64,000 nucleotides of DNA, taken from NCBI GenBank assembly GCA_965224195.1, contig OZ245040.1:704001-768000 (forward strand), written 5' to 3'. The notes beneath the pieces are model-generated. The model did not search any database. It was not told the DNA's origin and saw nothing but the letters and a program-made list of their open reading frames with translations. This document shows, piece by piece, positions 3,001 through 20,229 of this stretch (the first letter of the stretch is position 1; every line of letters begins with the position of its first letter). This DNA comes from Nitrosopumilus sp. (GTDB taxonomy: Archaea; Thermoproteota; Nitrososphaeria; Nitrososphaerales; Nitrosopumilaceae). The translations under genes were made by a program, and so were the position numbers.

Positions 3001-3040
3001 GAGATGCGGCTTGCAGCTGCTGTGAATTTAGCTCAACCAT
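1..3040 (-). CDS. ATP-dependent UvrD/PcrA-like helicase fused to a C-terminal PD-(D/E)XK nuclease (AddA/AdnA-like); runs off the window start
   Basis: Manual translation from ATG at 3040 (MVELNSQQLQAASHTDGPLQIIAGPGSGKT) gives MTFTEKAA, VDEFQD, VGDGDQ, NYRS, TMHKSKGKEF, EERRLFYVAATR, then YNDCPLKF and GRIDRLE...VVDFKSG. It is missing from the ORF track because no stop lies in the window. Confidence 0.9.
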   Translation of the reverse strand, partial: MVELNSQQLQAASHTDGPLQIIAGPGSGKTLVLTEKVKNLVMSGIPPQSILCMTFTEKAAGEMKQRLKKSGILDAKVSTFHSFAKEILEDNFMESGLNRDAKIFRKTSQMVWCIKNTDRFDFNQDYLNIGNNQIQTYTLVLRAIGFFKKERIKPDELEKYIQASMAKLEHSDQDDAKIKKQSKSLHRLYEFNKVYTEYEKYREGKGLIDFDDMVTKAIEILEKDEVLLQEYLDRFKYILVDEFQDNNFSQLSLVKILGKEGNVTVVGDGDQCIMRFQGAFFGIFKDFQKSFPNFKKIDISRNYRSTKNITDLAIQILNPIQNRELKTLFSEEKDGMPVQVVTTHTDKGQIEFVAKTIQDMLGKPLERKDGVTSPIAYKDIAILSRRNAEGQKFTNALRSFGIPATFVGETDIFANRAILDLVAFLKIAASSATSGVEVYRLLKSHGIHEQNIAVLTNAAHKKARHVYGEEHDFVLYTVRQHMDFRITQKSEIAELIEQIDNVIRIAGHLTTSELVYKIIFEISGIYKKSINSEKPFDRKNILLLNKFYEIAQEFQDINPASSVSDFIEHLSIIGNFEIEVEDFTPEDTVNVLTMHKSKGKEFPIVFVTDLADGRFPGSWKESVFTIPVELMKGAGRTADSKVLHTDEERRLFYVAATRTMDVLYLLYPKRYAGNVNEKQPSQFLCELNYEDNPLIETVEFDESENFNIESEDAVQRKKESLQREAASAISQQHLTTAMHRIVELSRIKHYERHESLDGFDPATILKIDVDELDLSSEIVRKRQPLINTEEFSLSASSIKAYNDCPLKFKFQKILRVPQPHSASLDLGTVIHSMTEEMANEKAKGKKITLDVALEKLKEKWIFHSYKNQTDETKAMGRAERMIDTYLKWEEAAQNTLVDTELSFEVSIANVVFTGRIDRLEKNPEGRFEVVDFKSGSSSKSKKDAVVDPQLNIYAKAVEELKGELPAKATLFYVEKDKTVEYQVTAESVREAMTSIGKTVENILKESFQPTPSF

Positions 3041-3143
3041 GTGTCTGTGATTATATGATGACATACTAAAAGTTTACAGCGTGCATGTGTGGATGAGTTT
3101 ACATGCCTGGTCTTACCGTGAAGTGTTCTGATGGTGTGGTTTA

Positions 3144-6100
3144 CGTAACATTTTGGTTACGGAAATTCCTCCCATCAGGGGAGGTTCAGGTCAATACAGT
3201 ATGGGCTTCAATGGGGCCGTAACATTTTGGTTACGGAAATTGGGGAAAATGACATATACAATATATACTGTATATACGCTTCAATGGGGCCGTAACATTT
3301 TGGTTACGGAAATTGCATGGACCTCCAGATATAATTTACTCAACTTGTTCCGGCTTCAATGGGGCCGTAACATTTTGGTTACGGAAATGTATCTAATGGT
3401 CTTGGACCTGGACTTTTCTCACGAGCTTCAATGGGGCCGTAACATTTTGGTTACGGAAATTTGCGGAGATTTTCATCATTTCTTGCAAGAGTTGTATAGC
3501 TTCAATGGGGCCGTAACATTTTGGTTACGGAAATTATGGGTTAACCGTCTGGATGATTTGGAAGAAGTGTAGCTTCAATGGGGCCGTAACATTTTGGTTA
3601 CGGAAATTGCCTGGCCGGATATTTTTAGAATGCGGCGTATCCGGGCTTCAATGGGGCCGTAACATTTTGGTTACGGAAATTAATCACTCCCTGCTGCCAC
3701 TACCAGCAGATGACACAGCTTCAATGGGGCCGTAACATTTTGGTTACGGAAATCACGGGATGGAGTATAAACGATATTGAGCATTCTGCTTCAATGGGGC
3801 CGTAACATTTTGGTTACGGAAATAAGATGGCCAAGAAGAAGAGGCAGCACCAGCACCAGGCTTCAATGGGGCCGTAACATTTTGGTTACGGAAATCGTTG
3901 TAGATATCACCGGTGACAGAGTCTTCGTCTAGCTTCAATGGGGCCGTAACATTTTGGTTACGGAAATTTATCTGCCGTAATTTCAATTGAATCAATTGCA
4001 GTCTGCTTCAATGGGGCCGTAACATTTTGGTTACGGAAATCAGGTACCAGCATGGGCATAACTGACATGGTGGGCAAGCTTCAATGGGGCCGTAACATTT
4101 TGGTTACGGAAATTAGATTAGTTCTGCGTTGTTTCCTTCTCGGCATATTGGCTTCAATGGGGCCGTAACATTTTGGTTACGGAAATAAAAATTGACATAC
4201 ACTATGCCAATTTCCAGATTGGTAAGCTTCAATGGGGCCGTAACATTTTGGTTACGGAAATATCCCACTGTTGCCAGTGATGACACGTGTGACATCCTTG
4301 CTTCAATGGGGCCGTAACATTTTGGTTACGGAAATTGTGTCGACTATGATGGGGAGGATGTGCAGTATGTCTAAGCTTCAATGGGGCCGTAACATTTTGG
4401 TTACGGAAATAAAAAAGAAGTGGGTGAACCACGGTTATCATTTATTAGCTTCAATGGGGCCGTAACATTTTGGTTACGGAAATATTTCAGGTCTGCTTTT
4501 CTCAAGGTTGCACCGGGTTGCTTCAATGGGGCCGTAACATTTTGGTTACGGAAATAAATCATACGGGCCTTGAAGCGACCCGCTGCAAAGCAAGCTTCAA
4601 TGGGGCCGTAACATTTTGGTTACGGAAATTATTCCTGGCAGATGTCATGGACAAAATCAGTGGTCATGCTTCAATGGGGCCGTAACATTTTGGTTACGGA
4701 AATTAGGAACACCTGCATAACAGTAAGACATTTATCCGTAGCTTCAATGGGGCCGTAACATTTTGGTTACGGAAATGTGTCTCGCTCAAGCAGTGTCTTT
4801 GTTACGTCATTGTCTGAGCTTCAATGGGGCCGTAACATTTTGGTTACGGAAATCGTTTTGTGGTGACGTGTACCTGTTGGCACCGGTGTGCTTCAATGGG
4901 GCCGTAACATTTTGGTTACGGAAATCAGGGAGCTTTCTCGGGATACCGGTCAGCTTGGCTTTGCTTCAATGGGGCCGTAACATTTTGGTTACGGAAATCA
5001 TGCTATTCCGACGTGGTAGGTGTATCTACGAATTGCTTCAATGGGGCCGTAACATTTTGGTTACGGAAATCATATCTGAGATTTGCTCCTTCCAGATCTG
5101 TGCCAATGCTTCAATGGGGCCGTAACATTTTGGTTACGGAAATCATATGATATCGGGTATGGCCGTCCAATGTCCTCGGGCTTCAATGGGGCCGTAACAT
5201 TTTGGTTACGGAAATGGGATGAAGTACGGGCAAAAATAAATCGTGCAACCATGCTTCAATGGGGCCGTAACATTTTGGTTACGGAAATATGGCTACAAAG
5301 TCATAACTGTAATGGTGGTTAACGCGCTTCAATGGGGCCGTAACATTTTGGTTACGGAAATTAATGCTGAGTTGTTAACCAAATTCACATTCGTAAAGCT
5401 TCAATGGGGCCGTAACATTTTGGTTACGGAAATCGGTATCGAAACCTATCACAAGCCCAACCCTGAAAACTAGCTTCAATGGGGCCGTAACATTTTGGTT
5501 ACGGAAATCCGGTGGTGATTCTGCAATAGCTGATAGTTACACATTGCTTCAATGGGGCCGTAACATTTTGGTTACGGAAATCAGTTAAGATGACGGATTA
5601 TATAGATCAGTCCGAAATCGGCTTCAATGGGGCCGTAACATTTTGGTTACGGAAATCATTGCGTATACAGCGTGCTCATGTGCTTTTCAATGGCTTCAAT
5701 GGGGCCGTAACATTTTGGTTACGGAAATCACCTGACGGAGGAGTTGATGGCGGTGATGGTGATGGGCTTCAATGGGGCCGTAACATTTTGGTTACGGAAA
5801 TTTGTCAGGGCGAGTGAGACGAGGGTTGGCACGTATGCTTCAATGGGGCCGTAACATTTTGGTTACGGAAATTCGGCAGATAGACGGAGTGTTATGATGC
5901 CAGTCGAACCGCTTCAATGGGGCCGTAACATTTTGGTTACGGAAATCAAAGGACATATGTACTGCCCAAAATGTCGCAGACCTGCTTCAATGGGGCCGTA
6001 ACATTTTGGTTACGGAAATTAACCCAGGGATTCCCGGCGTAATCGATGGAGTTGTGCTTCAATGGGGCCGTAACATTTTGGTTACGGAAATCCGAGACTC

Positions 6101-9100
6101 TTGACATTGCGGAATCGCTTGGATCAAGCTTCAATGGGGCCGTAACATTTTGGTTACGGAAATTGCCTGTACCAAGATGTGATTTTATCGAGGGCATCCT
6201 TGCTTCAATGGGGCCGTAACATTTTGGTTACGGAAATCCGTAAAGGCTGCTGACCAGTGGAGGTCTAGTATCTAAGCTTCAATGGGGCCGTAACATTTTG
6301 GTTACGGAAATAATGCAAAGGCATGATTCATGAAATGGGTTACAGTCTGCTTCAATGGGGCCGTAACATTTTGGTTACGGAAATCTGAACCGATTGCCGC
6401 GTATGCCTTTTCTTTCTTCTTGGCTTCAATGGGGCCGTAACATTTTGGTTACGGAAATGCGTATATAGCAGTTATAATTTCAGAAACAGAATATGCTTCA
6501 ATGGGGCCGTAACATTTTGGTTACGGAAATTTATAGCTCATGACATTGTCAGTGTGGAAGTCATTTAGCTTCAATGGGGCCGTAACATTTTGGTTACGGA
6601 AATGCACCAAAAAAAGGGTAACTTGGGTGTTTACAATTCTGCTTCAATGGGGCCGTAACATTTTGGTTACGGAAATCGAGTTAACCCCATGTCTAGGGTC
6701 GTGGTGTCAAGAGCTTCAATGGGGCCGTAACATTTTGGTTACGGAAATTCAGATGCAAATGGGGAAATTGTCATGGGCGCAGAATAGCTTCAATGGGGCC
6801 GTAACATTTTGGTTACGGAAATATCGCCGTTGCCAGTGTGCCACCTACAGTATCTCTCGCTTCAATGGGGCCGTAACATTTTGGTTACGGAAATAAAATT
6901 CGGAAACAACTAGAGCAGGACAAACTGAATAGCTTCAATGGGGCCGTAACATTTTGGTTACGGAAATATTTCCACAACGGAAACGTTGTGGCCCCATTGA
7001 AATAGCTTCAATGGGGCCGTAACATTTTGGTTACGGAAATCAGAAAAGGCTAGACGTGTATTTGACAGCAGGAGCATGCTTCAATGGGGCCGTAACATTT
7101 TGGTTACGGAAATTCACGGAAAATATGCCGACATTCGCTTAACGCCTCACGCTTCAATGGGGCCGTAACATTTTGGTTACGGAAATCAAAAATTAATGCT
7201 TGGAAATAAGTTCTCAAATCTAAGTGCTTCAATGGGGCCGTAACATTTTGGTTACGGAAATCAAAATTGCAGAATAAATGTCAAGTTCTTCCAGCTTGCT
7301 TCAATGGGGCCGTAACATTTTGGTTACGGAAATCACAAGGGAGCCACAACATATAAGCCCAGTTATTATAGCTTCAATGGGGCCGTAACATTTTGGTTAC
7401 GGAAATATGCCAATGTTTGCACGACCAGTTACAAACTTGTTCTCTCGCTTCAATGGGGCCGTAACATTTTGGTTACGGAAATTTGCAGGATGCCGTATCT
7501 GAGACGGAGACTAATTGAGCTTCAATGGGGCCGTAACATTTTGGTTACGGAAATCAGTTGGGCCTTTATTTCTCTGACCAGGTTGGCAGTGCTTCAATGG
7601 GGCCGTAACATTTTGGTTACGGAAATTCAGATTTGCTCCAAACATTTCTGCCCCTCTCAGAGCTTCAATGGGGCCGTAACATTTTGGTTACGGAAATCTA
7701 AAGAATTCAGGCAGTAAATCCGCCATATCTATCGCTTCAATGGGGCCGTAACATTTTGGTTACGGAAATTAGAAGATAGAGTGCGATTAAATGTTTGGTA
7801 GGGCATTAGCTTCAATGGGGCCGTAACATTTTGGTTACGGAAATACAGTAATTCCTGAAAAAGTGAATACTGCTGAACTAGCTTCAATGGGGCCGTAACA
7901 TTTTGGTTACGGAAATTCGAGCCATCAATGTTTGACAAATTCGTTCTACTGTGCTTCAATGGGGCCGTAACATTTTGGTTACGGAAATACGGGATATTGA
8001 TTCATTAACTCGTCAACGATTCTGAGCTTCAATGGGGCCGTAACATTTTGGTTACGGAAATTTTGGTTTCTTCGGATGTTTTCAGCGCACTAATTCCGTG
8101 CTTCAATGGGGCCGTAACATTTTGGTTACGGAAATCGATAGGTGATGACCTAGATAATGTCATAATTGATTAGCTTCAATGGGGCCGTAACATTTTGGTT
8201 ACGGAAATAAATCTGTTGCATTCAGCCAATAATGTGCTCCAACAGCTTCAATGGGGCCGTAACATTTTGGTTACGGAAATGCGGAAAACAAACAAAGCAC
8301 ATCACTCGAAAAAGAACAGCTTCAATGGGGCCGTAACATTTTGGTTACGGAAATCTCACAAGATTTACAGGTTAATCCGCCAAGTTAACTGCTTCAATGG
8401 GGCCGTAACATTTTGGTTACGGAAATTTGCAAAGCCAACCATATGCAAACCGTCTTGAATCGTCAAGAGCTTCAATGGGGCCGTAACATTTTGGTTACGG
8501 AAATTTATAACAATTCAAACATTGCTGAAGACTCTGACCTGCTTCAATGGGGCCGTAACATTTTGGTTACGGAAATCTTGAAAGGCGCAAATCTAAAAGG
8601 AGCAAACCTAGTGCTTCAATGGGGCCGTAACATTTTGGTTACGGAAATTCGGTTATAATCTCTGATTGTCATTAGTCCTCTTATCGCTTCAATGGGGCCG
8701 TAACATTTTGGTTACGGAAATCTGATACGTCGATGTCGATTGATGCCTTTCTTTTGCCGCTTCAATGGGGCCGTAACATTTTGGTTACGGAAATTTAGTC
8801 CAAAACTGGATTAACAGAAATTCCTCAAAGCTTCAATGGGGCCGTAACATTTTGGTTACGGAAATTTGACATAGTGGCTATCAAATTAGTGGCTCCTTGC
8901 ATATGCTTCAATGGGGCCGTAACATTTTGGTTACGGAAATAGGTCAAGATGGTTTAGAAATCATTGTTTTTTATAAGCTTCAATGGGGCCGTAACATTTT
9001 GGTTACGGAAATAAAATACAAACGAGGACTAAAAGCAGCTAGCACTGCAGCTTCAATGGGGCCGTAACATTTTGGTTACGGAAATCAGTTGATGAACTGA

Positions 9101-9740
9101 ACCAGAGTTCAGTTTTAGTCAGCTTCAATGGGGCCGTAACATTTTGGTTACGGAAATTCGGAACGATTGTAATAATTACAAGTGACCCGAAAAGCTTCAA
9201 TGGGGCCGTAACATTTTGGTTACGGAAATCTAATCCGTCTTGGGAATATGCTTTTTGACCGTGGATCTGCTTCAATGGGGCCGTAACATTTTGGTTACGG
9301 AAATGATGTGTATGCGTGCCTGTACCAAGATATAATTTTGTGCTTCAATGGGGCCGTAACATTTTGGTTACGGAAATCATGGAATTTTATTACACTGCAG
9401 TATCACGAGGGAGGCTTCAATGGGGCCGTAACATTTTGGTTACGGAAATTTATGCAGGTCACATGTGTTCGCTGTGGATACACAAAGCTTCAATGGGGCC
9501 GTAACATTTTGGTTACGGAAATGTGCAGTAGGTCTACCTCGACATCTACAGAATTATAGCTTCAATGGGGCCGTAACATTTTGGTTACGGAAATTTTTTC
9601 CAGCAAAAAATTGAAAAGAGATACACAACTAAGCTTCAATGGGGCCGTAACATTTTGGTTACGGAAATTCCGAGTACCCTCACGGAGTTAGAACTGAGTG
9701 AGTAGCTTCAATGGGGCCGTAACATTTTGGTTACGGAAAT
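3144..9740 (-). CRISPR. CRISPR array: 90 full 36-bp repeats plus one truncated trailer repeat, 90 spacers (mostly 36-39 bp)
   Basis: On + the repeat is GCTTCAATGGGGCCGTAACATTTTGGTTACGGAAAT (first full copy 3205-3240, last 9705-9740). On - it is ATTTCCGTAACCAAAATGTTACGGCCCCATTGAAGC, with stem CCGTAAC/GTTACGG and an ATTGAAGC 3' end. The truncated copy at 3144-3166 and the AT-rich leader next to cas2 give minus orientation. Units were counted by hand. Confidence 0.98.
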
Positions 9741-9911
9741 AGCAGAAATTGTGCTCAAGTTTTTACTATTTGTATAATTATACATACGTTTGTTTATTTA
9801 CTTCACAATATGTTGTTAACTATAAAAACCAATTTTTAGTTTTTCATAGATCTTATATTGTTATGACAAGCGCTTCTGCATGTGTACGTCATCACATCGT
9901 CCCTCGTCAAG
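9741..9911 (-). promoter_or_regulatory. CRISPR leader
   Basis: AT-rich non-coding stretch between the cas2 stop and the first repeat. It has a TATA-like TTTTTATA on - near 9821-9828 and the palindrome TGTATAATTATACA at 9771-9784. Confidence 0.8.
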
Positions 9912-10202
9912 TTATATTATTATTGCAGACTCTTTTTTTGTGTTTATCGGTTCACCTAGTGTGCTTATACAATTTTTACCTCTACCATCAACAGGTCCAA
10001 CATCAATTATTAAAACTCTGTCTTCTTTTAAATTTAATATCTCTTTTAGATCCCCTTTCATTAGAACCAATTCCTTTGGATTTACATCGCACATAAATAC
10101 AGAATATTGAACCGGTATGCCATAACCGTTCATTTTTTTGTATGTATCTGCAAGTCGTCTAGGCTCACTCACATCATAACATACAAAATATCTATTACGC
10201 AA
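9912..10202 (-). CDS. cas2: CRISPR-associated endonuclease Cas2
   Basis: 96 aa with YFVCYDVS...RRL and VQYSVFMC motifs; directly follows cas1. Confidence 0.95.
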   Translation of the reverse strand: MRNRYFVCYDVSEPRRLADTYKKMNGYGIPVQYSVFMCDVNPKELVLMKGDLKEILNLKEDRVLIIDVGPVDGRGKNCISTLGEPINTKKESAIII

Positions 10203-10205
10203 TAA

Positions 10206-11876
10206 TTATCGTGTCCTAAATGATAAATAAGAAGGTAATTCCCCTAAAAGGTATCGGGATAAAAGTCTTGCCTGAATTTCCATGATTCTTCTATAACTTA
10301 CAACGTATCCTAATAATGGGTGTGTGATTGGAGTATCCATCCTTCGCTCAAAGGCATTGATGATCTTGCTTTTTCCATTTTTTGTAAGAGTCACACCGAA
10401 CTTTGTTCTTATAATATCTGCATTTGATAATTCACCATTATTGATTATTGTAATGCAAACTGAATCTGCAATTATTGGCCTGAATTCTTCAATTAAATCT
10501 AAGGCAAGTGCAGGTTTACCATATCTGGGTTTATGAAGAAACCCTAGATAGGGATCAAGGCCTACTCGTAATAGAGTAACTGTTGCCTGTTTTGTAAGCA
10601 TCGTATACAAAAATGAAAGTATCGCATTTACTGGGTCTAGAGGAGGGCGTTTGTTTCGCCCATTAAAATCAAAATCATACAAATTTGTTTTTAGCATTCC
10701 ATTAAATTCTGAAAAATAAATCTTTGCTGCAATTCCTTCAATTCCAAGAATTTGTTCGTACTTTTTAGCAACACGTGCCTTCTCTGCAAATTTATCAATC
10801 TCAGTGGATACCGTATTTGGCAGATGTTTGTGATTTCTACGCAACAACGTAATGCAATTTTTGATCTTCCCAAATACAATCTCTCTCGCAACTGGCATGA
10901 ATAATTTATCTTCTGCTGCTTGTTTGTATTGGCATAATCTTAGTTCCACATTCTTATGAGACATTCCATTAGTAATCCCTGTAAACCATCCACCATAGCT
11001 CAGATAGCATATTGGAATATTATTATCACACAGATAACGTACTGCTTGAGTCGTAACTTGAATATTTCCCATTATTGTGATATTGGAGATGTCAAGCATC
11101 CTGATTTTTTTTAACACATTACCTTGATATTTGATTACTATGCAATCATGATCCTTTGATACTACGGCGCCTTGTTCCTGAACATATACTGGCATTGAAT
11201 CATCTACAGCAGGATACATGCGTCTAACTTGACTTTTTTTAATTAATTTCTTAGACTTGCCTGCAAGCAGATTTATCTCATCTGGAAGACATATTCCAAC
11301 CAGAGCACATCTGGGGCATTTTGGACTGTCTACTAGTGGGGGTGGCATTATATTTGAACGTGCCATGTCACGCATTTGCTGGATCATCTTTTCTGTCTTC
11401 TCAACTAGAACATCTGAAAATACAACTTCTATGCGCTGTTTTGATGATATGTAATATATGATTCCTTTTGTACATGTATATCCGTGAGATCTAAGTAATA
11501 ATCCCTGACCACATATCTGAATCTTGTGATAATCATGTACTTTATCTGGAATATTTGGAACGGCACCACGTTTGTATTCTATGGGTGTGGCATATGATCC
11601 ATCTAATTCTAGCAGGTCCATCTTTGCAATGAGACCAACATTGCTGTCTGAAACAGTAATTGATCTTGCATGAATTACTTGATCAGGATCTTCTCTTAGT
11701 TTTTTATTTCCTGACGGTTTATCTACATTTCTGTGCTGCATCTTTCCATCTATTACATCTACAGTATCTGTAAACTCATTTTGTATCCACTGCATGTATG
11801 CTGAACGTGGACAATATGCATATTCTGCAAGCATACTTACAGGAATGAATCTTGGTTCTTTGTATTCTGCCATCAT
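10206..11876 (-). CDS. cas1: Cas4-Cas1 fusion (type I-G)
   Basis: N-terminal Cas4 (YCPR, DLLE..PIEYKRG, CPRCALVGIC Fe-S cysteines). C-terminal Cas1 (GIEG, RNKRPPLDPVNAILSFLY, GFLH, ALDLIEEFR). Confidence 0.95.
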   Translation of the reverse strand: MMAEYKEPRFIPVSMLAEYAYCPRSAYMQWIQNEFTDTVDVIDGKMQHRNVDKPSGNKKLREDPDQVIHARSITVSDSNVGLIAKMDLLELDGSYATPIEYKRGAVPNIPDKVHDYHKIQICGQGLLLRSHGYTCTKGIIYYISSKQRIEVVFSDVLVEKTEKMIQQMRDMARSNIMPPPLVDSPKCPRCALVGICLPDEINLLAGKSKKLIKKSQVRRMYPAVDDSMPVYVQEQGAVVSKDHDCIVIKYQGNVLKKIRMLDISNITIMGNIQVTTQAVRYLCDNNIPICYLSYGGWFTGITNGMSHKNVELRLCQYKQAAEDKLFMPVAREIVFGKIKNCITLLRRNHKHLPNTVSTEIDKFAEKARVAKKYEQILGIEGIAAKIYFSEFNGMLKTNLYDFDFNGRNKRPPLDPVNAILSFLYTMLTKQATVTLLRVGLDPYLGFLHKPRYGKPALALDLIEEFRPIIADSVCITIINNGELSNADIIRTKFGVTLTKNGKSKIINAFERRMDTPITHPLLGYVVSYRRIMEIQARLLSRYLLGELPSYLSFRTR

Positions 11877-12589
11877 TCTTCATATGGCACAAACATTCCA
11901 AGTCCAAAATGACATCCATATCCCAAAAAAAGCGGTCCAGATACAGGATTGCTAAATTCCAGCATTACCTCATATCCTGGCATCGGTTTTTCATTTGGTT
12001 TTCTAATACGCTTGAACTCTTTTGGTTGTATTTTAGATAGATGCATTGGTATGCTATTGTCCTTTACAACCACATTTATTATTTTATATAAAGGATATCT
12101 CCGTTTCAATTCCAATTCTACTTGATTCTTTGGAGTATCAGACACCTTATTGCCACGGATTTTTGTATGCCGATTTAATACAAAAGGCGTTTTTGAAATC
12201 CATTTTTTATGTTCCTGCATCATTGAATTATCTTCATTGATATTGTCACAAAGTATTACATGTGCACGTATGTTGTCGTGTTTAGAATATATCTCATCTA
12301 CTGCTTTAACCGCATCTAGTTCCAATATTGTAAGTTTAGTATCTGTCATAATTGTTATATGATCAATATATCCATCACAATCATCATCAGTGGGAATATA
12401 AAAAACATGTTCATGCCCATATAGTGGCATGCCATTAGAATCCTTTCCGGCCAGTGTTCTTGAAACATTGTTATTGTTTTGTCTTCCATAATGGGACATT
12501 ATTGCCAATCTGATTAAACTGCCAACATTAATTGTAAAAGTTATTGAAATATTGTTTTCATAAATTTGATATCTTAATGTGTTGCACAT
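11873..12589 (-). CDS. Stand-alone Csb2 C-terminal/Cas6-like RAMP protein (second copy)
   Basis: GHEHVFYIPTDDDCDGYIDH, WISKTPFVLNRH and the G-rich loop GPLFLGYGCHFGLGMF resemble the Cas6 half of Csb2. It has no Cas5-like N-terminal half. Confidence 0.75.
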   Translation of the reverse strand: MCNTLRYQIYENNISITFTINVGSLIRLAIMSHYGRQNNNNVSRTLAGKDSNGMPLYGHEHVFYIPTDDDCDGYIDHITIMTDTKLTILELDAVKAVDEIYSKHDNIRAHVILCDNINEDNSMMQEHKKWISKTPFVLNRHTKIRGNKVSDTPKNQVELELKRRYPLYKIINVVVKDNSIPMHLSKIQPKEFKRIRKPNEKPMPGYEVMLEFSNPVSGPLFLGYGCHFGLGMFVPYEE

Positions 12590-12598
12590 CTTATCATG

Positions 12599-13525
12599 TC
12601 AAACTTCCTTTGTTCCTTTTGTAAATCTCATTTGTTTATCTTTGGTAATTCTTTCTGAAGAATACAATTCCAATCCAATTTTGTCAAGTTCTTCTGGCTT
12701 AAACTTGGAGTAATCTGTAGACAAAATACCTCGAATTTCGTCCAGACCTGCAAACTCTTCCCATATTGGCCATACAAATTTTTTGTCATTCCATCCAATA
12801 GTACGTACATGCTTACCATCGTATAGTGTGGGATAAAGAGAAATAGCTTCTACTGCAAGTCTGTTTGCTCCATGCATAGATGGGTTAAAACTCGGTACAG
12901 GATCAAATATCAGCAGTGCATGCTCTCGTAGAAGAGATATAGGATCCCAATACATAGAAACACCGTCATCCAAATAATCCCATTCTTTAAAGAGTGTGGT
13001 ATGGATCCCTTCTTTCTTTCTTTCTATTTCCCCCACAAGCTTGTTTGCATTCCCAAATAAAGTTGCGTTTCCAGTTACAAACCGAAACAAACTATCTTTA
13101 ATTTCTTCTTTGTCTGGAAAAGCAACAGATGCAGCAAAATCATATAGGCGTCTTTTGCTTGAAAAATTATTAGAATCGATCTTATTCATAATCAGATCCA
13201 TAATAAAACCCATAAATTCATTGTATTGATCATATTTGTTGGCCTTTGTAGATTTTGAGTCCTTTTTATTTTTCCCCTTCATAATCCCTCCATAATCAAT
13301 GTCTTGTGGCTCAAACAAAGGATCATCTTTGCCAAGATGCTCTGCAAGTAGATCAGATATCTCTTCTTCTGTTGGTTCTTTACCATCTTTACATCGTATC
13401 TCTGCATTGGTATTCCAACGTAACTCCCATTCTGATTTTGGTTCTATCATGTCAAGTACTCTAATAGTTCCAAGGGATACCAAAAAATTAAATGGGTTGT
13501 CAGGGTATAAACTGTGTAAGATCAA
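12599..13525 (-). CDS. Type I-G large subunit, Csb3-like (Cas8g/Cas8u)
   Basis: Follows cas3. The N-terminal LHSLYPDNPFNFLVSLGTIRVL and C-terminal GANRLAVEAISLYP..FVWPIW resemble the Cas8u family. The likely start is the TTG overlapping the cas3 stop (308 aa); the ORF track extends it to 13594. Confidence 0.7.
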   Translation of the reverse strand: MILHSLYPDNPFNFLVSLGTIRVLDMIEPKSEWELRWNTNAEIRCKDGKEPTEEEISDLLAEHLGKDDPLFEPQDIDYGGIMKGKNKKDSKSTKANKYDQYNEFMGFIMDLIMNKIDSNNFSSKRRLYDFAASVAFPDKEEIKDSLFRFVTGNATLFGNANKLVGEIERKKEGIHTTLFKEWDYLDDGVSMYWDPISLLREHALLIFDPVPSFNPSMHGANRLAVEAISLYPTLYDGKHVRTIGWNDKKFVWPIWEEFAGLDEIRGILSTDYSKFKPEELDKIGLELYSSERITKDKQMRFTKGTKEV

Positions 13526-16329
13526 TTTGTGCCACCGCTTGCTTCCCAATCCGCAAGTATGAATAAGGCCTCCAACCATGCAAGTCCCCACCACCCATAC
13601 TTTCTAACACATATCCAAAAACGTTTTGCAGCTCCACTTCCAACACGCTCAATTCCAGTAGACGCTTGAGCTTGTAGCGTTTTCCCATCCAAAACATACT
13701 CTATATTTGGATTTTCATCATCGATGACTACTGGTACAAACGGTCTACAATGACCATGATGGGATTCTACTAGGTGTAAAAATAAATCATTATCGAAAGT
13801 ATTCAGTGTTTTAGCAAATTCTGATGAAATAAATTCATGCCTAAAGCCCTTTGGGTAATATATGACACTTGAATCTTTTTTCTTCCCGTTATCTTTTGCA
13901 CGAAGTTGTGGATGGTGCATTTTTGATCTATACAGCATGTCTTGGAATCTTTTGTCTGCCTTTCCTATGTCGTGCACCTTTGCAGTCATTTCAAATAATG
14001 CAGTAAAATCATCTAGTTTTAGTTTTTCTACATATTTCTTAACATTTTTCACAACATCATCTGTATGATCCTCTAAAATTTCTTTTGGGGTATCTTTGTC
14101 TTTTTTTTGGCCTGTTTTATATCTGGATTTGATTAGCAAAATGTTGTCATCTAGCTCTCCAATATGATCTATAGGAGAATTTGTCATATCACTGTCGATT
14201 TTTAAAGTTTTGTCAATTGCTTTCAGGGAATCCCACAATGGAGTTTTTTCTAGTGATTTCCATATTGTTTTTTTAATTTTTTCAATATCCATCTTTGAAT
14301 ATTCATTTTTTATAGCATGAATAAGATCTTTTCCCTCATCTGTCATCTTTACTGGAAAGTTATTTCCCATTCTAATTACTAGTTTCTTTGTTGATTCAAA
14401 TGTAGCTTTTTCGGCAATGTCTACACATGTCTTGTCTGTATTTTCATTTGACCCATATTCATCCATGTCCGGTATGTGACCTAGTTTTGACCATCCTCCA
14501 TCTTCAGTACGTAGCACAATAACATCACTAGGTTTTATATCATCTGGGTTAATTTCACCGTTCTGACCTGATTTTTTACCGCGCCAAACCCATGCACTTA
14601 TCTTTGCTCGCTTCTCATTGTCCATGCCTTTTGCTCGCTTCTCATTGTCCATGCCTTCTGCTAACTGCCATTCCACATCTCCATCAGCGCATAAATCCTT
14701 TTCATTTTTTAGATATTTGCGAATATCCCATATTGGGACTTGCATGGATTCAATAGATTTTGGTAAAAGTGCATTCATTATGTCTTCCCAATTGGCATCT
14801 AGGCCAGAACGCCATATTACAGAGACCATTGGTGAGCCTCGCTCAAAGCCATGTAGAAATGGAGATATGTCAGGATCAATGTGAAGATGGTTGTGTGTTT
14901 GACATAACAGATCCATATGAGATGGTAAAAGATTGCATGATACTGGTCCTGGCATAACAAATTCTGCCACCTGATCATAATTACATTTATCAATTATTTT
15001 CTTGAATTTTTTTATCCCAAAATCTATCGTGTCGTTTGTGGCATTATTTTTAAGAAAGTCCCATGTTTTGCTTACTGTATCACCATATATAAAATCACTA
15101 CCATTACTATTTACGACAGATTTTGGCGCAACTATCGAACACCGTGAATTTAGATATTCGCCGCTACGGTTAAGCCTTCCAAATCTTTGCCTAAGTGAAT
15201 CTAAACTTGATGCCTCACTGACCATACCTGCAAAATCAAGATCAGCACCTACCTCAAGACACTGTGTTGTCACGATAAATGTTACTTCAGTGGGTTTTTT
15301 TTCACCTGTCTTAAATGGTTTTATATCGCGCCATAATTTATCACGATCCCATGGTCTCATTCTTCCAATCATGAGATGTGTATTGTGATGGCCACTTTCC
15401 TTTAATTTGCGATATACCTCTTTTGCTGTTGCGATTCTGTTTACAACTATGGCAATTGCTTTAATGTTGTCTTTCTCTAACTCTAAAGCTTGTTTTTGAA
15501 TATCTGATGCAAGTTTCTCATAATCCTTACTGTCTTTTGCATTTGATTCTATTAACTTACACATTTTAGAGGCCTCAACTATGCGTTTTATTTTATCATG
15601 TTTATAGTCAGCATCAGAGAGTTCAAATCTTTCTGTCTCTTTAATGGGTGTTGCAGTCATTTCTACCACACCCCATGGTCTAGGGATTGATTTACCCTCA
15701 ATCCAAGGTTCCTTCCTAAATTCTTCAATACGTCTTAATGTCTCTGTGAATGGTTTGCTGATATGCGTCTCATCTAGTATCCAAAGACAATCATATCCCA
15801 AAAGCCCTGCATTTACAAGTCTAGACATACGTCCTAGGCCATATCCGCGAAAGAGTAATCTGGATCCTGCTTGATCTACAGTTGATGCGATAACAATTGG
15901 TTGTACTGGATTACTACTCCATTCATTATCAATATGAGTTCCACCCCGGAGGACAGCATGCATTAGAGCTGTTTTACCTCCAGAAATATCACACAGGCTC
16001 TTTTTCACCCTCCCCAGTATCGAGTCATCTGTTGATTTCTCTAACTCATCGGATATTTTCTTGGCACGCTCATTTCCTTCATCTACAACTATTCGTCTGT
16101 TGACAACAAACACTATTCTTCTTGGATTCTTCTCAGGATTACATGCAAGTGCATATACTGCTATATCTATGCATGACGTCTTTCCACATCCAGTTGGAAC
16201 ATTTATGCTTTCAGGCCATCTACCTGTCTCAATTACTTGCTCGGCAAGCTTGCTTTGCCACGGGTATGGCTCATATCCATGTATTTCTCGATAAAAATCC
16301 TTAAACTCACAGGAAGTTAATTCAACCAT
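13522..16329 (-). CDS. cas3: Type I-G Cas3 helicase with C-terminal HD nuclease
   Basis: PYPWQ, PTGCGKT, STVDQ.GSRLLFRGYG, DETH, MTAT, EVGADLDF and QRFGRLNR, followed by C-terminal EDH, HDIGK, RHE, HHG and LAD motifs. Confidence 0.93.
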   Translation of the reverse strand: MVELTSCEFKDFYREIHGYEPYPWQSKLAEQVIETGRWPESINVPTGCGKTSCIDIAVYALACNPEKNPRRIVFVVNRRIVVDEGNERAKKISDELEKSTDDSILGRVKKSLCDISGGKTALMHAVLRGGTHIDNEWSSNPVQPIVIASTVDQAGSRLLFRGYGLGRMSRLVNAGLLGYDCLWILDETHISKPFTETLRRIEEFRKEPWIEGKSIPRPWGVVEMTATPIKETERFELSDADYKHDKIKRIVEASKMCKLIESNAKDSKDYEKLASDIQKQALELEKDNIKAIAIVVNRIATAKEVYRKLKESGHHNTHLMIGRMRPWDRDKLWRDIKPFKTGEKKPTEVTFIVTTQCLEVGADLDFAGMVSEASSLDSLRQRFGRLNRSGEYLNSRCSIVAPKSVVNSNGSDFIYGDTVSKTWDFLKNNATNDTIDFGIKKFKKIIDKCNYDQVAEFVMPGPVSCNLLPSHMDLLCQTHNHLHIDPDISPFLHGFERGSPMVSVIWRSGLDANWEDIMNALLPKSIESMQVPIWDIRKYLKNEKDLCADGDVEWQLAEGMDNEKRAKGMDNEKRAKISAWVWRGKKSGQNGEINPDDIKPSDVIVLRTEDGGWSKLGHIPDMDEYGSNENTDKTCVDIAEKATFESTKKLVIRMGNNFPVKMTDEGKDLIHAIKNEYSKMDIEKIKKTIWKSLEKTPLWDSLKAIDKTLKIDSDMTNSPIDHIGELDDNILLIKSRYKTGQKKDKDTPKEILEDHTDDVVKNVKKYVEKLKLDDFTALFEMTAKVHDIGKADKRFQDMLYRSKMHHPQLRAKDNGKKKDSSVIYYPKGFRHEFISSEFAKTLNTFDNDLFLHLVESHHGHCRPFVPVVIDDENPNIEYVLDGKTLQAQASTGIERVGSGAAKRFWICVRKYGWWGLAWLEALFILADWEASGGTN
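14603..14657. repeat. In-frame 27-bp tandem duplication inside cas3
   Basis: TTTGCTCGCTTCTCATTGTCCATGCCT occurs twice, encoding GMDNEKRAK twice. Confidence 0.95.
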
Positions 16330-17780
16330 TGTTTATCCCACCATGGCCTACACAAACCATACCCATTATATCTTCCAGCTCCTAATAATAATGGACCTGT
16401 GATTTTTTCCTTGAATTGAAGTCGTGCATGCACTTGTATTCTGTTTTCTGCATACTTTGGAAATGTGTTGGACTTTGGCACTCCCTTTAGAAATGCAATA
16501 TTTGATATGGATACATCAGGTTCAGGAAGATTTTGATATGTGCATGATTTGGATATTATTTCCCCCGCTTTGTCATTCCAGGTTGTACTATCTTTTACAC
16601 GTGGAATTCTATCTAATATTATTGGTGTTGTTGTAACCCATGTTCTTGCAGATTCTTTCCAAGTATTCGGGTCTAGCGTTCTTATGGGGTGATCCGGAGG
16701 ATCCAAAGAAAACACTATGTCATCATAATTTTTATTCTTGATTCTAATCTCCGTGGATTCTTTAGTGCCAAACAATGCCTTTGAAATAACATCTTCACTT
16801 TTAGAATCTCTTTCACGTGGAAATATGATTGCAACGCCACGAATTAATCCGTCTGCATATGAATGGCCTGTAAAAGATAATGGTACTATTGCAATATGTG
16901 GCTTTTTACTTGGATTTCCATCCGTATCAAGTCCTGATATATATTCTGGCGAATTACTTTCCTGTATTTTATTTCTTAGAGATCGTATTACATGTTTGCT
17001 GTGTAATAAACTGGGTTTTTGATCACTTGTAATTGGCATAATCCACATATCTGAAAATTGACCTCGAATACAGGGTGCTTTCTGATCTTGTTTTTTAGAA
17101 TATCTGTATTCTGGTAGAGATATGGCATTAAGACGTGCTTTTCTGATAAAATATTCATCATGACTTTTAAGAATGTCTTTTACCATAAATGATTTTTCTA
17201 GTTTGGATAATAGTCCTTTTGATGCCCAGCGAACTGTGGTATCTCCAAACTTGTCTGGAATCATGGCAGGATCTATGCTGACTTTTGAATCATTAACGGT
17301 TAATGAGACAAAACTGCTACTGTGACCCAACCTATGAACTCGAGAACAAAGTGTCTTTAACGTATTCGAGTATTTTTGAGAATCTGCATCATCCCATACA
17401 AAATACACTGGGTCATACCCTGTTATGGTGGTGGGAAACATGCGTGACTTGCGTATTCTATTTAGAGGTATTTCTAATGTTGTCAACAGTGCACCGCCTT
17501 TTTTGACTTTTTTCCCAATTTCATCATTTATTGGAACATATGTTTCTACAATATCACGTTTGGTAATTTTATCTGGTTCATAATATATCCAAGGGGGGCT
17601 ACATTGTTCAAGCCACTCTAAAGCTTTCTTTTCATTTTGTTTTTCACCTCCATCAAAATATGCCGACACCATTGCCATAAACAATCTGCCTGGATGTGGT
17701 GGCCATTCTGGTTTTTTATCTTGTTTTAAATTTGTTGCAGTATAGCGTCCTGTCAAAAACTCTATGCTGATAGACAGCAT
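16317..17780 (-). CDS. csb2: Type I-G Cas5/Cas6 fusion Csb2
   Basis: FLTGRY, PEWPPHPGRLFMAMV, ALEWLE, YVPIND, LGHSSSFV, WVTTTPIILDR and GPLLLGAGRYNGYGLCRP. Confidence 0.92.
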   Translation of the reverse strand: MLSISIEFLTGRYTATNLKQDKKPEWPPHPGRLFMAMVSAYFDGGEKQNEKKALEWLEQCSPPWIYYEPDKITKRDIVETYVPINDEIGKKVKKGGALLTTLEIPLNRIRKSRMFPTTITGYDPVYFVWDDADSQKYSNTLKTLCSRVHRLGHSSSFVSLTVNDSKVSIDPAMIPDKFGDTTVRWASKGLLSKLEKSFMVKDILKSHDEYFIRKARLNAISLPEYRYSKKQDQKAPCIRGQFSDMWIMPITSDQKPSLLHSKHVIRSLRNKIQESNSPEYISGLDTDGNPSKKPHIAIVPLSFTGHSYADGLIRGVAIIFPRERDSKSEDVISKALFGTKESTEIRIKNKNYDDIVFSLDPPDHPIRTLDPNTWKESARTWVTTTPIILDRIPRVKDSTTWNDKAGEIISKSCTYQNLPEPDVSISNIAFLKGVPKSNTFPKYAENRIQVHARLQFKEKITGPLLLGAGRYNGYGLCRPWWDKQWLN

Positions 17781-17782
17781 AG

Positions 17783-19057
17783 TTAATCTCCTTTTGAATC
17801 ATCTTCTAATCCACTTTGTGAATTTTTTATACACTGAATAAGATCCTGATTTGGTAATAATTTCATAGGTGTTGTATCCCATGGCAAATCATTACTAGTT
17901 GCATCTTTAATCGAGTCTTCTAATAATTTAATTGCACCTTTACTGTCAAGAGTAAATGTTTTATCCATATTGCCGAGTACATCCCAAGTTGTTGGTTCTT
18001 TTTGTATCAAAACACATCTTGAGCGAAGATCCAATCCATTTTCCACCGAAAGCGTAAATGCTACAAGTCCAAGTGCTGTTAATACTGCTCTTGCTGCATC
18101 ATCTTTTTGTATATTTATTGATTTTTCATTTTCATTAGGAAAATGTAGTTTTCGGAGTCCAGCAAGAGAGATAACACATGTCTGTTCTGCATATTCTATT
18201 GTTGCTCCATTTGCAGCGATATCCCCTTTTTTGATAGTGTTGTCGTTAGAAAGGGGATTACTTGAACCAGGTAAGTTATCACTATATGTATTGAGACTTG
18301 GTGCGACATTTCCTAGGTTTATGTTAGATAATTTCCCTTCTCGATATTTTGTTGACTTGTCTTTTTCGTCCTTTTTTGCTTCATTTTCATCAAGCGTCCA
18401 ACCTCCATCTTCTTTTTCCCATACTCTGCTATCAGAAGTTTTTTGGATTAAAGGATCAATACGGCTTGAAGTACCAACTCCAAACACTGCATTAATGCCA
18501 ACTATTTCACTAGTAATTACCCGTTCAAATTTGTTTCCCGATCCTCCTTTTGGACCTGCAGAGTCCCACATGCCAAAAAGTAATGCTGTAGGACATGTGC
18601 CAAACAGAGATGTAGAAGAATAAGGTGTAGAGTTTAGTATTTTGATACCCTCTTCAGATTCACGAAACGGCTTACCATTTAAAATACATTCCCTAAACAA
18701 TGCATCAGCTATGCGGTGCGGTGCCTGAAGGCTTGTTAAACGATTTCCTACAATGTCTAAATCATCTTTACTTGATTCAGAAAAATCAATTACAGCTAAC
18801 GGTAGTTTTATTTTTTCAGAATCAACAGCATTTTGTAATGCTTCCTCCATACGATTTGCTTGGCTAGCAACAGAATCCATCAAAACACATTTGGTTGTTT
18901 TTTCATTAACCAATCTGTCTTCTATGGCATACACTCCTCCTGCATATGTAGAGGGAAATATTTTACTATGTTGCCCACCGGCTGGATATAATTTGTTAAT
19001 TGTTCTTATGGCCACCTGATCTTTTATAATTTCCTTAAATTCTTGAAATTCTAACAT
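17783..19057 (-). CDS. csb1: Type I-G Cas7 backbone Csb1
   Basis: KIFPSTYAG, DSVASQANRME, APHRIADA, PTALLFGMWDS, SSRIDP, ISLAGLRKL and LRSRCVL. Confidence 0.92.
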   Translation of the reverse strand: MLEFQEFKEIIKDQVAIRTINKLYPAGGQHSKIFPSTYAGGVYAIEDRLVNEKTTKCVLMDSVASQANRMEEALQNAVDSEKIKLPLAVIDFSESSKDDLDIVGNRLTSLQAPHRIADALFRECILNGKPFRESEEGIKILNSTPYSSTSLFGTCPTALLFGMWDSAGPKGGSGNKFERVITSEIVGINAVFGVGTSSRIDPLIQKTSDSRVWEKEDGGWTLDENEAKKDEKDKSTKYREGKLSNINLGNVAPSLNTYSDNLPGSSNPLSNDNTIKKGDIAANGATIEYAEQTCVISLAGLRKLHFPNENEKSINIQKDDAARAVLTALGLVAFTLSVENGLDLRSRCVLIQKEPTTWDVLGNMDKTFTLDSKGAIKLLEDSIKDATSNDLPWDTTPMKLLPNQDLIQCIKNSQSGLEDDSKGD

Positions 19058-19079
19058 TGTGATCTATATTGAGATAATC

Positions 19080-19087
19080 TATATAAA
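19080..19087 (-). promoter_or_regulatory. Putative TATA box of the cas operon
   Basis: TTTATATA on -, 23-30 nt upstream of the csb1 ATG, typical of leaderless archaeal promoter spacing. Confidence 0.55.
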
Positions 19088-20144: not shown

Positions 20145-20229
20145 CATGACAAAGTACTGTTTGATGTAAGGTGTGTGATACTCGACGTATGGCAGTGATT
20201 GCCTTGATGCTAAAGCCCATACCAAAAGG

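What the first reader, a model, noticed from the sequence alone, without database searches (positions are those of the whole stretch)
6968..7004. A spacer that is a complete, inverted, foreign CRISPR repeat (possible anti-CRISPR-repeat immunity)
Seen: the spacer reads ATTTCCACAACGGAAACGTTGTGGCCCCATTGAAATA on +. It aligns without gaps to this array's sense repeat ATTTCCGTAACCAAAATGTTACGGCCCCATTGAAGC at 27/36 positions. The stem differences are compensatory: G-C to A-T, T-A to C-G, plus an added G-C pair, giving CCACAACG-GAAA-CGTTGTGG. It also ends in a canonical ATTGAAAT. It therefore looks like an evolved repeat of a related I-G system, not a mutated local copy. It is antisense to the array, and its edges match the repeat edges to within 1 nt. 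Known: some viruses and MGEs carry mini-arrays and solitary repeat units that act as RNA anti-CRISPRs. Inference: the host acquired a guide against a virus-borne mini-array or solitary repeat, or against a competing CRISPR-carrying element. Such a guide could hit many repeat copies. Alternatively, Cas1 captured an excised repeat unit as a prespacer.
Basis: partly seen in the sequence, partly recalled or inferred. Interest (0 to 1): 0.92.

Follow-up and report, generated by a model that had tools for sequence, protein, structure and literature searches.

The report
CRISPR spacer copied from foreign repeat
One of the 89 memory units in this archaeon's CRISPR array is an upside-down copy of the repeat of a related CRISPR system, so the cell seems to have once taken a piece of another CRISPR array as if it were invader DNA; this is a rare curiosity seen only once.

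Summary
Window 6968-7004 (+) is a 37-nt spacer between two perfect repeats of a 90-repeat type I-G array that is transcribed on the minus strand. Read on the plus strand, it is a full-length member of the I-G repeat family of this Nitrosopumilus genus. It matches the host repeat at 27/36 at offset 0, and 6 of its 9 differences keep or lengthen the hairpin. A covariance model built from six natural variants, without this spacer, finds it end to end (46.4 bits). The nearest natural repeat (31/36, identical 8-bp stem arms) lies in a cas-less array next to conjugation-type genes and IS elements in another Nitrosopumilus genome. The exact variant was found nowhere else. Among 1,127 spacers from 13 related genomes it is the only repeat-like one. 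The best reading is that the I-G adaptation machinery captured DNA of a foreign, probably element-borne, I-G array. Because Cas4 cuts at the PAM and the other end is set by length, the two matching edges need only one coincidence. Capture specifically at repeat borders remains possible. A virus-borne source and any anti-array function are unshown. Interest is moderate.

The parts
6968..7004 (+). The odd spacer, 37 nt. Positions 6968-7003 read on + as a full 36-nt I-G family repeat with stem CCACAACG/CGTTGTGG and loop GAAA. Position 7004 (A) is one extra base at the end next to the PAM. It is the 38th spacer from the leader.
6932..6967 (-). Host repeat on the leader-distal side of the odd spacer. 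It follows the spacer in the transcript. On the DNA it forms a near-palindrome with the spacer.
7005..7040 (-). Host repeat on the leader-proximal side. It precedes the spacer in the transcript. In the predicted fold it pairs with the spacer along its whole length.
3205..9740 (-). CRISPR array of 90 identical 36-nt repeats (sense ATTTCCGTAACCAAAATGTTACGGCCCCATTGAAGC) and 89 spacers.
3139..3166 (-). Degenerate terminal repeat at the trailer end of the array.
   Evidence: 18.5 bits
9741..9911 (-). AT-rich leader between cas2 and the first repeat. It is inferred from its position.
   Evidence: inference from gene order
9912..10202 (-). cas2
10206..11876 (-). cas4g/cas1g fusion, the adaptation nuclease-integrase
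   Evidence: NF049935, 714.7 bits, cut-off 560
11873..12589 (-). 238-aa protein matching only the C-terminal (Cas6-like) half of Csb2
12599..13594 (-). type I-G Cas3-extension family protein
13522..16329 (-). cas3g helicase-nuclease
16317..17780 (-). csb2 (Cas5-Cas6 fusion)
17783..19057 (-). csb1/cas7g

Best explanation
The spacer is a record of foreign DNA that carried a related type I-G CRISPR repeat. The most likely source is a stand-alone array on a conjugative or other mobile element, or DNA of another Nitrosopumilus strain.

The host's Cas4/Cas1-Cas2 complex captured it in the ordinary way. The Cas4 domain cut at a PAM that lay one base beyond the 3' end of a foreign repeat, on the strand antisense to that repeat. 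The other end was trimmed to the usual 36-37 nt. Because the repeat is 36 nt long, the captured piece coincides with one whole repeat in inverted orientation.

The resulting crRNA would guide I-G Cascade-Cas3 to DNA that carries this repeat variant next to a PAM. The host's own repeats differ at 9 positions, including seed positions 2 and 3, and so should be spared.

Shown: the identity, orientation and edges of the spacer, its family membership, the existence of a near relative in a cas-less array with element-like flanks, and the rarity of the event.

Inferred: the source, the PAM, the capture route, and any interference activity.
For: 1. The locus is a complete I-G adaptation and interference operon followed by leader and array on the same strand.
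2. The spacer is a full-length family member on the opposite strand. A covariance model built from six natural variants without it scores 46.4 bits, E about 5e-10, over positions 1-36. It is the only strong plus-strand hit in 64 kb.
3. It keeps all three stem pairs that change on both sides across the family.
4. A scan of one genome for each of 185,579 species found the stem core in 1 record. That record holds 11 tandem repeats plus one degenerate copy and matches the spacer at 31/36 with identical stem arms. In the genus this is 1 of 150 other genomes.
5. With my queries that genome has no Cas4g/Cas1g, Cas3g or Cas7g. Its array is flanked upstream by a TadC-type membrane protein, a 939-aa DUF87/AAA_10 ATPase, a prepilin peptidase and IS66. 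Downstream lie IS66, IS5-like and IS110 transposases.
6. Krupovic et al. 2019 (PMC6563490, passages read) list VirB4- and TadC-type proteins and prepilin peptidase as hallmarks of thaumarchaeal ICEs. They also report ICE-borne arrays without cas genes.
7. In I-G, Cas4 cuts at the PAM and the non-PAM end is trimmed by length (PMC10504553, passages read). One coincidence therefore explains both edges and the extra base at 7004.
8. The 37-nt length is the modal spacer length here (31 of 89).
9. CRISPR arrays are known protospacer hotspots (PMC5737086, passages read).
10. The own genome has no second copy within 3 mismatches, so the source was not in this genome.
Against: - The exact repeat variant (GAAA loop, ATTGAAAT end) was found nowhere. 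It was absent from 400 other family genomes within 3 mismatches, from the other 150 genus genomes within 2 mismatches of the loop-free pattern, from IMG/VR and from the metagenome contigs.
- Its 3' end differs from all eight natural variants seen.
- Rfam's CRISPR-DR16 model does not report it at E<=10, although it finds the host repeats at 25-31.5 bits, below the gathering score of 35.
- Assume the TTN PAM reported for other I-G systems (PMC9638904, passage read). The repeat then holds 9 fixed TT sites. A TTN one base past the repeat occurs at only 82 of 1,127 repeat units. Partial-repeat captures should therefore far outnumber whole-repeat captures, yet I found 0 partial captures and 1 whole capture.
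- No other spacer of this array matches the relative's genome.
- The PAM of this system could not be determined. Only 1 protospacer was found.
Confidence: 0.55

Rival explanations
1. Capture specific to repeat borders. The host Cas4/1-Cas2 recognised the related foreign repeat as an integration site and nicked both of its borders, as it does at its own leader-proximal repeat. The released repeat-length duplex, just the size of a prespacer, was then integrated. The whole-repeat frame would then be a direct product of the mechanism and not a coincidence.
For: The edges coincide with the repeat to within 1 nt. There is 1 whole-repeat capture and 0 partial captures among 1,127 spacers. Under a TTN PAM, partial frames should be roughly 100 times more available. 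Nicking of both sides of the repeat during integration, and the resulting hotspots at arrays, are documented (PMC5737086, passages read). The spacer's termini ATTTC...GAAAT are inverted repeats of each other.
Against: The spacer is 37 nt, not 36. The extra base lies at the PAM end, as ordinary Cas4 cutting predicts. The event is single: 1 of 1,127 spacers in 13 genomes. A built-in mechanism should recur wherever related arrays meet. No such reaction product is reported in the passages I read. The '1 versus 0' count rests on an assumed PAM. It may also be biased by selection against partial captures whose seed matches the host's own repeats.
Confidence: 0.2
2. The source was a virus-borne solitary repeat unit or mini-array (an RNA anti-CRISPR or an interviral-conflict array). 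The spacer would then be host immunity against that virus.
For: Solitary repeats and mini-arrays in viruses are documented (PMC10651486 and PMC11656645, passages read). Two IMG/VR contigs carry mini-arrays of the wider '...CGTGGCCCCATTGAAGC' repeat type. L095 has 4 units at 24.6-31.9 bits and L071 has 2 units at 20.7-25.7 bits. A solitary unit would have a fixed flank, so a PAM could sit at a fixed place. It could also have a divergent 3' end like the one seen here.
Against: No IMG/VR contig has the stem core. The whole array has no match in 50,697 phage records. The two viral mini-arrays are far from this sequence (9-12 mismatches). One of them is high-GC and not Nitrosopumilus-like. The captured repeat is less like the host's own repeat (27/36) than like another strain's (31/36). 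An RNA mimic aimed at this host would be expected to look like the host's repeat.
Confidence: 0.12
3. Local origin. A host repeat was inverted or duplicated in place by replication slippage or template switching and then drifted. Alternatively, the feature is an assembly or sequencing artefact.
For: The repeat plus the inverted repeat-like spacer forms a long near-palindrome. The repeat-spacer-repeat unit folds at -45.6 kcal/mol, against -23.8 (sd 3.4) for the other 88 units. Such structures can promote template switching. Reads could not be checked.
Against: Six of the 7 internal differences preserve or extend base pairing. The resulting stem arms are identical to those of a natural array in another genome, which drift would not give. 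The 73-nt period and both flanking repeats are intact. All 90 host repeats are identical, so there is no sign of local decay. A chimera between two arrays would carry foreign spacers, not one lone inverted repeat.
Confidence: 0.04

Closest known systems
Stand-alone CRISPR arrays on thaumarchaeal integrative-conjugative elements (NCAV2-E1, NitIsl-E1; Krupovic et al. 2019, PMC6563490, passages read)
   Same: These are arrays without cas genes, carried by mobile elements of the same phylum, that rely on the host's Cas proteins. The nearest relative of the captured repeat also lies in a cas-less array, beside a VirB4/HerA-type ATPase, a TadC-type protein and a prepilin peptidase.
   Different: Those arrays are type I-B, with repeats identical to the host's. 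The paper reports spacers against other elements, not a host spacer that is itself a repeat. For the G372 region I did not identify an integrase or element borders.
CRISPR arrays as hotspots of spacer uptake (Shiimori et al. 2017, PMC5737086, passages read; they cite the same for E. coli I-E)
   Same: DNA at and around arrays is preferentially sampled by Cas1-Cas2(-Cas4), because integration nicks both sides of a repeat.
   Different: Those hotspots are in the cell's own arrays and extend over flanking DNA. A spacer that equals one heterologous repeat is not described in the passages I read.
RNA anti-CRISPRs / viral solitary repeat units (Camara-Wilpert et al. 2023, PMC10651486, abstract and passages read)
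   Same: In both cases a single CRISPR repeat unit occurs outside its normal place and is tied to conflict between CRISPR systems and mobile elements.
   Different: Racrs sit in viral genomes, are transcribed in the sense orientation and mimic the host's repeat to trap Cas proteins. Here the unit sits in the host array as a spacer, is antisense, and differs from the host repeat at 9 of 36 positions. The paper's main text has 0 occurrences of 'spacers targeting' or 'spacer matching'.
Virus-borne mini-CRISPR arrays in interviral conflicts (Medvedeva et al. 2019, PMC6858448, search listing and abstract start only)
   Same: These are CRISPR components carried by mobile elements and used in competition.
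   Different: There the element carries the array and targets rival viruses. Here a cellular array holds a guide against a CRISPR repeat.

Membership tests
I-G CRISPR repeat family of this Nitrosopumilus genus (is the odd spacer a member?) | Full-length match to a sequence-plus-structure model of the family built without the candidate | tested here: met
   Model R1 was built from six natural variants. The hit is at 6968-7003 (+), positions 1-36 of 36, 46.4 bits, E about 5e-10 (rough calibration). The host repeats score 60.7 bits on the minus strand.
I-G CRISPR repeat family of this Nitrosopumilus genus (is the odd spacer a member?) | Hairpin whose stem covaries across members | tested here: met
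   Pairs 6-23, 7-22 and 8-21 change on both sides across 7 sequences, and the spacer keeps all of them. 91.1% of cells are paired, against 21-41% when the partner is slid. Only 7 sequences were used, so the power is low.
I-G CRISPR repeat family of this Nitrosopumilus genus (is the odd spacer a member?) | Invariant 3' block GGCCCCATTGAA, four bases between the hairpin base and the 8-nt handle | tested here: met
   Alignment A1. The spacing agrees with the Csb2 cleavage rule in PMC9638904 (passage read).
I-G CRISPR repeat family of this Nitrosopumilus genus (is the odd spacer a member?) | Handle ending in AAGC, or AAGG in one array, as in all natural variants seen | tested here: not met
   The spacer ends in AAAT. 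Eight natural variants end in AAGC or AAGG.
I-G CRISPR repeat family of this Nitrosopumilus genus (is the odd spacer a member?) | The same sequence occurs elsewhere as tandem, regularly spaced copies | tested here: not met
   The exact variant was not found. Only a 31/36 relative occurs as an array.
I-G CRISPR repeat family of this Nitrosopumilus genus (is the odd spacer a member?) | Match to a curated Rfam CRISPR-DR model | tested here: not met
   There is no CRISPR-DR hit on the plus strand at E<=10. The host repeats hit CRISPR-DR16 at 25.3-31.5 bits, below the gathering score of 35.
Type I-G CRISPR-Cas system (the host locus) | Cas4-Cas1 fusion, Cas2, Cas3g, Csb2 (Cas5-Cas6 fusion) and Csb1/Cas7g | tested here: met
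   All pass the NCBIfam curated cut-offs. Cas4g/Cas1g scores 714.7 bits (cut-off 560) and Cas3g scores 698.2 bits (cut-off 400). Pfam agrees.
Type I-G CRISPR-Cas system (the host locus) | Large subunit Cas8g/Csx17 | tested here: inconclusive
   None of the 7 cas-region ORFs searched matched a Cas8g model. The stretch 19058-20367 has no ORF of 90 aa or more. The 331-aa Cas3-extension protein and the long C-terminus of the 424-aa Cas7g were not examined further.
RNA anti-CRISPR (Racr) / viral solitary repeat unit as the source | Encoded in a virus or prophage as a solitary unit that mimics the host's repeat | tested here: not met
   There is no viral contig with the stem core and no phage-record match. 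Identity to the host repeat is only 27/36. The absence of a hit does not exclude an unsampled virus.
Self-targeting spacer | A matching protospacer elsewhere in the same genome | tested here: not met
   The only copy within 3 mismatches is the spacer itself. The host repeats differ at 9 positions, including spacer positions 2 and 3. The genome is 99.85% complete in 2 contigs.

The most novel reading that the evidence does not exclude
The I-G adaptation complex treats a heterologous but related CRISPR repeat as a substrate. It cuts at both repeat borders and stores the excised repeat as a spacer. This would give the cell a guide that polices incoming element-borne arrays, which would otherwise use the host's Cas proteins. 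It would be a CRISPR-against-CRISPR layer of conflict in marine ammonia-oxidising archaea.
Probability: 0.15. Interest if true: 0.8.

Novelty: new variant of a known kind. Interest (0 to 1): 0.45.

Why it matters
If the reading holds, it is direct genomic evidence that a CRISPR array can itself be sampled as foreign DNA. It would also show that arrays of one repeat family move between Nitrosopumilus strains, probably on conjugative elements.

It gives a concrete substrate for asking how a Cas4/1-Cas2 integrase handles repeats that are similar but not identical to its own. It also raises the question of whether hosts defend against elements that carry 'parasitic' arrays.

It rests on one event with no identified source. 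For now it is a lead, not a demonstrated defence layer.

Tried and rejected
Searches for the source:
- Own genome, within 3 mismatches: only the spacer itself.
- 400 other genomes of the family, within 3 mismatches: 0.
- 150 other genomes of the genus, loop-free pattern within 2 mismatches: 1, namely G372.
- One genome for each of 185,579 species, exact loop-free core: 1 record.
- IMG/VR, exact loop-free core: 0.
- Metagenome contigs, exact GAAA-loop core and then the loop-free core: 0 and 0.
- Phage records, whole array by blastn: no match.

Searches for targets and the PAM:
- The array against the genus gave only repeat-to-repeat matches. Only 2 first-look candidates per genome were scored there, so weak protospacer matches could be missed.
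- 958 spacers of related arrays against the own genome gave 1 protospacer at 95% over 40/40, with 5' flank ...TAC. That is too few for a PAM.
- The host's 89 spacers have no significant match elsewhere in the own genome. The best is 22 nt at 95%.

Eighty were listed and screened (81 matches). Only L095 and L071 looked repeat-like.

Literature phrase searches for a repeat-derived or repeat-like spacer returned 0 papers. These were exact-phrase searches of the open library only, so I claim only that I found no precedent. Supplementary files were not opened, and they may hold spacer-target tables that bear on this.

Rejected readings:
- Copy from a second array in the same genome.
- Decayed local inverted repeat.
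- Capture from processed RNA. The edges are repeat borders, not the Csb2 cut site. No reverse-transcriptase domain turned up in the cas proteins searched.
- tracrRNA-like anti-repeat. The locus is type I-G, for which I know of no such role (recalled).

Complex prediction, structure prediction and the protein-homology searches were not used because nothing here turned on a protein.
Full report
WHAT IS THERE

A direct read of window 5000-10000 and the repeat finder show a CRISPR array from 3205 to 9740. It has 90 identical 36-nt repeats (90 of 90 with 0 mismatches, and none elsewhere in the 2.07-Mb, 99.85%-complete genome). There are 89 spacers of 34-42 nt. Thirty are 36 nt and 31 are 37 nt.

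It lies between perfect repeats with the normal 73-nt period.

On the minus strand, upstream of the array, lies a complete type I-G gene set:
- Cas7g/Csb1: 17783-19057
- Csb2: 16317-17780
- Cas3g: 13522-16329
- a Cas3-extension protein: 12599-13594
- a 238-aa protein like the C-terminal half of Csb2: 11873-12589
- the Cas4g/Cas1g fusion: 10206-11876
- Cas2: 9912-10202

An AT-rich stretch follows at 9741-9911, which I take as the leader.

Four things agree that the array is read on the minus strand:
- the gene order;
- a degenerate last repeat at 3139-3166;
- the strand of the Rfam CRISPR-DR16 matches;
- the position of the 8-nt ATTGAAGC handle, four bases past the hairpin base, which is the rule found for I-G Csb2 (PMC9638904, passage read).

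The odd spacer is the 38th from the leader, so 37 later acquisitions followed it.

IS THE RESEMBLANCE REAL?

Yes. Read on the plus strand, the spacer matches the sense form of the host repeat at 27 of 36 positions at offset 0. The next best of the 89 spacers scores 18 and the median is 14.

The binomial chance is 6e-10 per offset. It is about 3e-6 after correcting for spacers, orientations and offsets. In 20,000 random 37-mers the maximum was 22.

The nine differences are two compensatory pair changes (7/22 and 8/21), one new G-C pair (12/17), one loop base (13) and the last two bases (35, 36).

I collected natural repeats of the same family from other genomes of the genus. Eight variants were seen in 12 other genomes. 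Their stems differ by paired changes. On an alignment of six of these natural variants plus the spacer, three stem pairs change on both sides, and the spacer keeps every pair (only 7 sequences, so low power).

A covariance model built from six natural variants, without the spacer, finds it over its full length on the plus strand at 46.4 bits, E about 5e-10. The 90 host repeats are found on the minus strand. The next plus-strand hit in the 64-kb window scores 16.7 bits.

Two results go against membership:
- Rfam's curated CRISPR-DR16 model does not report the spacer at E<=10.
- The spacer ends in AAAT, whereas all natural variants end in AAGC or AAGG.

WHERE DID IT COME FROM?

It did not come from this genome, because the 36-mer is unique within 3 mismatches.

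The exact variant was not found in any collection:
- 0 of 400 other family genomes within 3 mismatches;
- 0 IMG/VR contigs for the loop-free core;
- 0 metagenome contigs in two scans;
- no phage-record match for the whole array.

The loop-free stem core does occur in exactly one record among one genome per 185,579 species. This is the same as 1 of 150 other genomes of the genus (handle G372). That record has 11 tandem repeats, CTTTCCACAACGATAACGTTGTGGCCCCATTGAAGC, plus one degenerate copy. This is 31/36 to the spacer, with the same 8-bp stem arms.

With the window's proteins as queries, that genome shows no Cas4g/Cas1g (only a 30%-identical Cas1 about 450 kb away). It shows no Cas3g beyond a 22-bit fragment and no Cas7g.

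The flanks of its array look like a mobile element:
- Upstream: a T2SSF/TadC-type membrane protein, an IS66 transposase, a 939-aa DUF87/AAA_10 ATPase, a laminin-G-domain protein and a type IV prepilin peptidase.
- Downstream: IS66 fragments, an IS5-like transposase and an IS110 transposase, then further IS elements and a class I tRNA synthetase.

Krupovic et al. 2019 (PMC6563490, passages read) list VirB4- and TadC-type proteins and prepilin peptidase among the conserved parts of thaumarchaeal integrative-conjugative elements. They describe two such elements that carry arrays without cas genes. I did not identify an integrase or element borders, so 'ICE-borne' is suggested, not shown.

No other spacer of the host array matches that genome convincingly. 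The best is 28 nt at 89%, E 0.06.

HOW WAS IT MADE?

In I-G systems the Cas4 domain cuts exactly at the PAM, and that end is integrated on the spacer side. The non-PAM end is trimmed to length by the Cas1 domain and integrated on the leader side (PMC10504553, passages read).

In the array's sense orientation, the PAM end of this spacer is the 7004 side. If a PAM lay one base past the 3' end of a foreign repeat, on the antisense strand, the modal 37-nt length would place the other end on the repeat's first base. The two matching edges are therefore one coincidence, and the extra A at 7004 is expected.

How likely is that coincidence? Assume the TTN PAM reported for other I-G systems (PMC9638904; not determined here). 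The needed AA at spacer bases 3-4 then occurs in 82 of 1,127 family spacers. The repeat itself holds 9 fixed TT sites. Frames that begin inside the repeat should therefore be about a hundred times more available.

Yet among 1,127 unique spacers from arrays of 13 genomes I found one whole-repeat capture and no partial capture. For 10-mers of the invariant block there was 1 hit, the odd spacer itself. For 9-mers there were 2 hits, against a shuffled mean of 0.74 and a maximum of 3.

This imbalance is the main evidence for the rival reading, in which the integrase cuts the related repeat at both borders and the excised unit becomes the prespacer. Arrays are known uptake hotspots because both sides of a repeat are nicked during integration (PMC5737086, passages read).

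Three points count against that rival:
- the 37-nt length;
- the single occurrence;
- possible selection against partial captures, whose PAM and seed would also be present in all 90 host repeats.

I put ordinary capture at 0.55 and border-specific capture at 0.2.

WHAT WOULD IT DO?

This part is inference only. The crRNA would carry the antisense of the foreign repeat. It would guide Cascade-Cas3 to DNA holding that repeat variant next to a PAM, that is, to some but not all units of such an array.

The host's own repeats differ at spacer positions 2, 3, 16, 17, 21, 25, 26, 30 and 31. Two seed mismatches plus seven others should prevent autoimmunity. This fits the spacer's survival through 37 later acquisitions.

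There may be a cost. In the transcript the preceding host repeat can pair with the spacer over its whole length. The repeat-spacer-repeat unit folds at -45.6 kcal/mol, against a mean of -23.8 (sd 3.4, minimum -36.0) for the other 88 units. This could hinder processing of two crRNAs, although folding during transcription may favour the local hairpins.

WHAT COULD NOT BE DONE

- The PAM of this system is unknown. Only one protospacer was found.
- The genus-wide search for targets scored only two candidates per genome.
- Literature searches for a precedent were exact-phrase searches of the open library. They found none. Supplementary tables were not seen.

VERDICT

The closest natural relative points to an element-borne, cas-less array rather than a virus.

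The event is unique among 1,127 spacers, its source is unsampled, and no function is shown. It is a rare and neat variant of ordinary spacer acquisition. There is a modest chance (about 0.15) that it reflects a repeat-specific capture route or a real CRISPR-against-CRISPR defence. Interest 0.45.

Noticed in passing
own genome G000:C1:1626154-1626332 (locus L162:6155-6333, minus strand); outside the window: A relic mini-array of three I-G-family repeat units sits far from the main array. One unit scores 55.6 bits with the family model. One has a different stem (CCTCACC/GGTGAGG, 24.7 bits). One is degenerate (15.3 bits). It lies beside a 264-aa PD-(D/E)XK-type ORF, in a stretch that also holds DUF3800 and an AAA_15 ATPase. 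It suggests that other I-G arrays entered or decayed in this lineage before.
   Followed up: partly
window 19058-20367 and the cas operon 9912-19057: No Cas8g/Csx17 large subunit was recognised among the ORFs searched, and there is no ORF of 90 aa or more in 19058-20367. The operon has instead a Cas3-extension protein, an extra 238-aa Csb2 C-terminal-like protein, and a 424-aa Cas7g of which only residues 16-190 match the Csb1 model.
   Followed up: no
window 6164-6201 and 9305-9341: Two spacers of the array share a 14-mer and overlap on what looks like the same target in two variants. This is the only such pair among the 89 spacers.
   Followed up: no
L095:441-704 (IMG/VR contig, high GC): A mini-array of four units of a related repeat type sits on a viral contig. 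Its first spacer (477-512) resembles the contig's own sequence just upstream (352-390), as in the mini-arrays described for interviral conflicts.
   Followed up: no
L071:9188-9294 (IMG/VR contig): Two repeat-like units of the same wider type (20.7 and 25.7 bits) are separated by a 35-nt spacer and followed by a terminator-like hairpin.
   Followed up: no
G372:C1:1957300-1977200 (L030) and L010:2100-8000: The cas-less 11-repeat array lies between a conjugation-type gene set (TadC-type protein, DUF87/AAA_10 ATPase, prepilin peptidase) and a nest of IS66, IS5-like and IS110 elements. The region has 58% G+C, against 51% in the 20 kb downstream.
   Followed up: partly
G000:C1:858342-858381 (outside the window): A spacer of another genome's I-G array (G443, L033 position 3596) matches the own chromosome at 95% over 40 of 40 nt. 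The target gene was not examined.
   Followed up: no
G000:C2 (L163, 7,434 bases): The genome's second contig is small and holds seven ORFs of 100 aa or more, including one of 633 aa. Whether it is a plasmid, a virus or an unplaced piece was not examined. No spacer matches it beyond 14 nt.
   Followed up: no
window 2-3064 (minus strand): A 1,021-aa UvrD-type helicase fused to a PD-(D/E)XK (Cas4-like) nuclease domain lies directly beyond the trailer end of the array.
   Followed up: no
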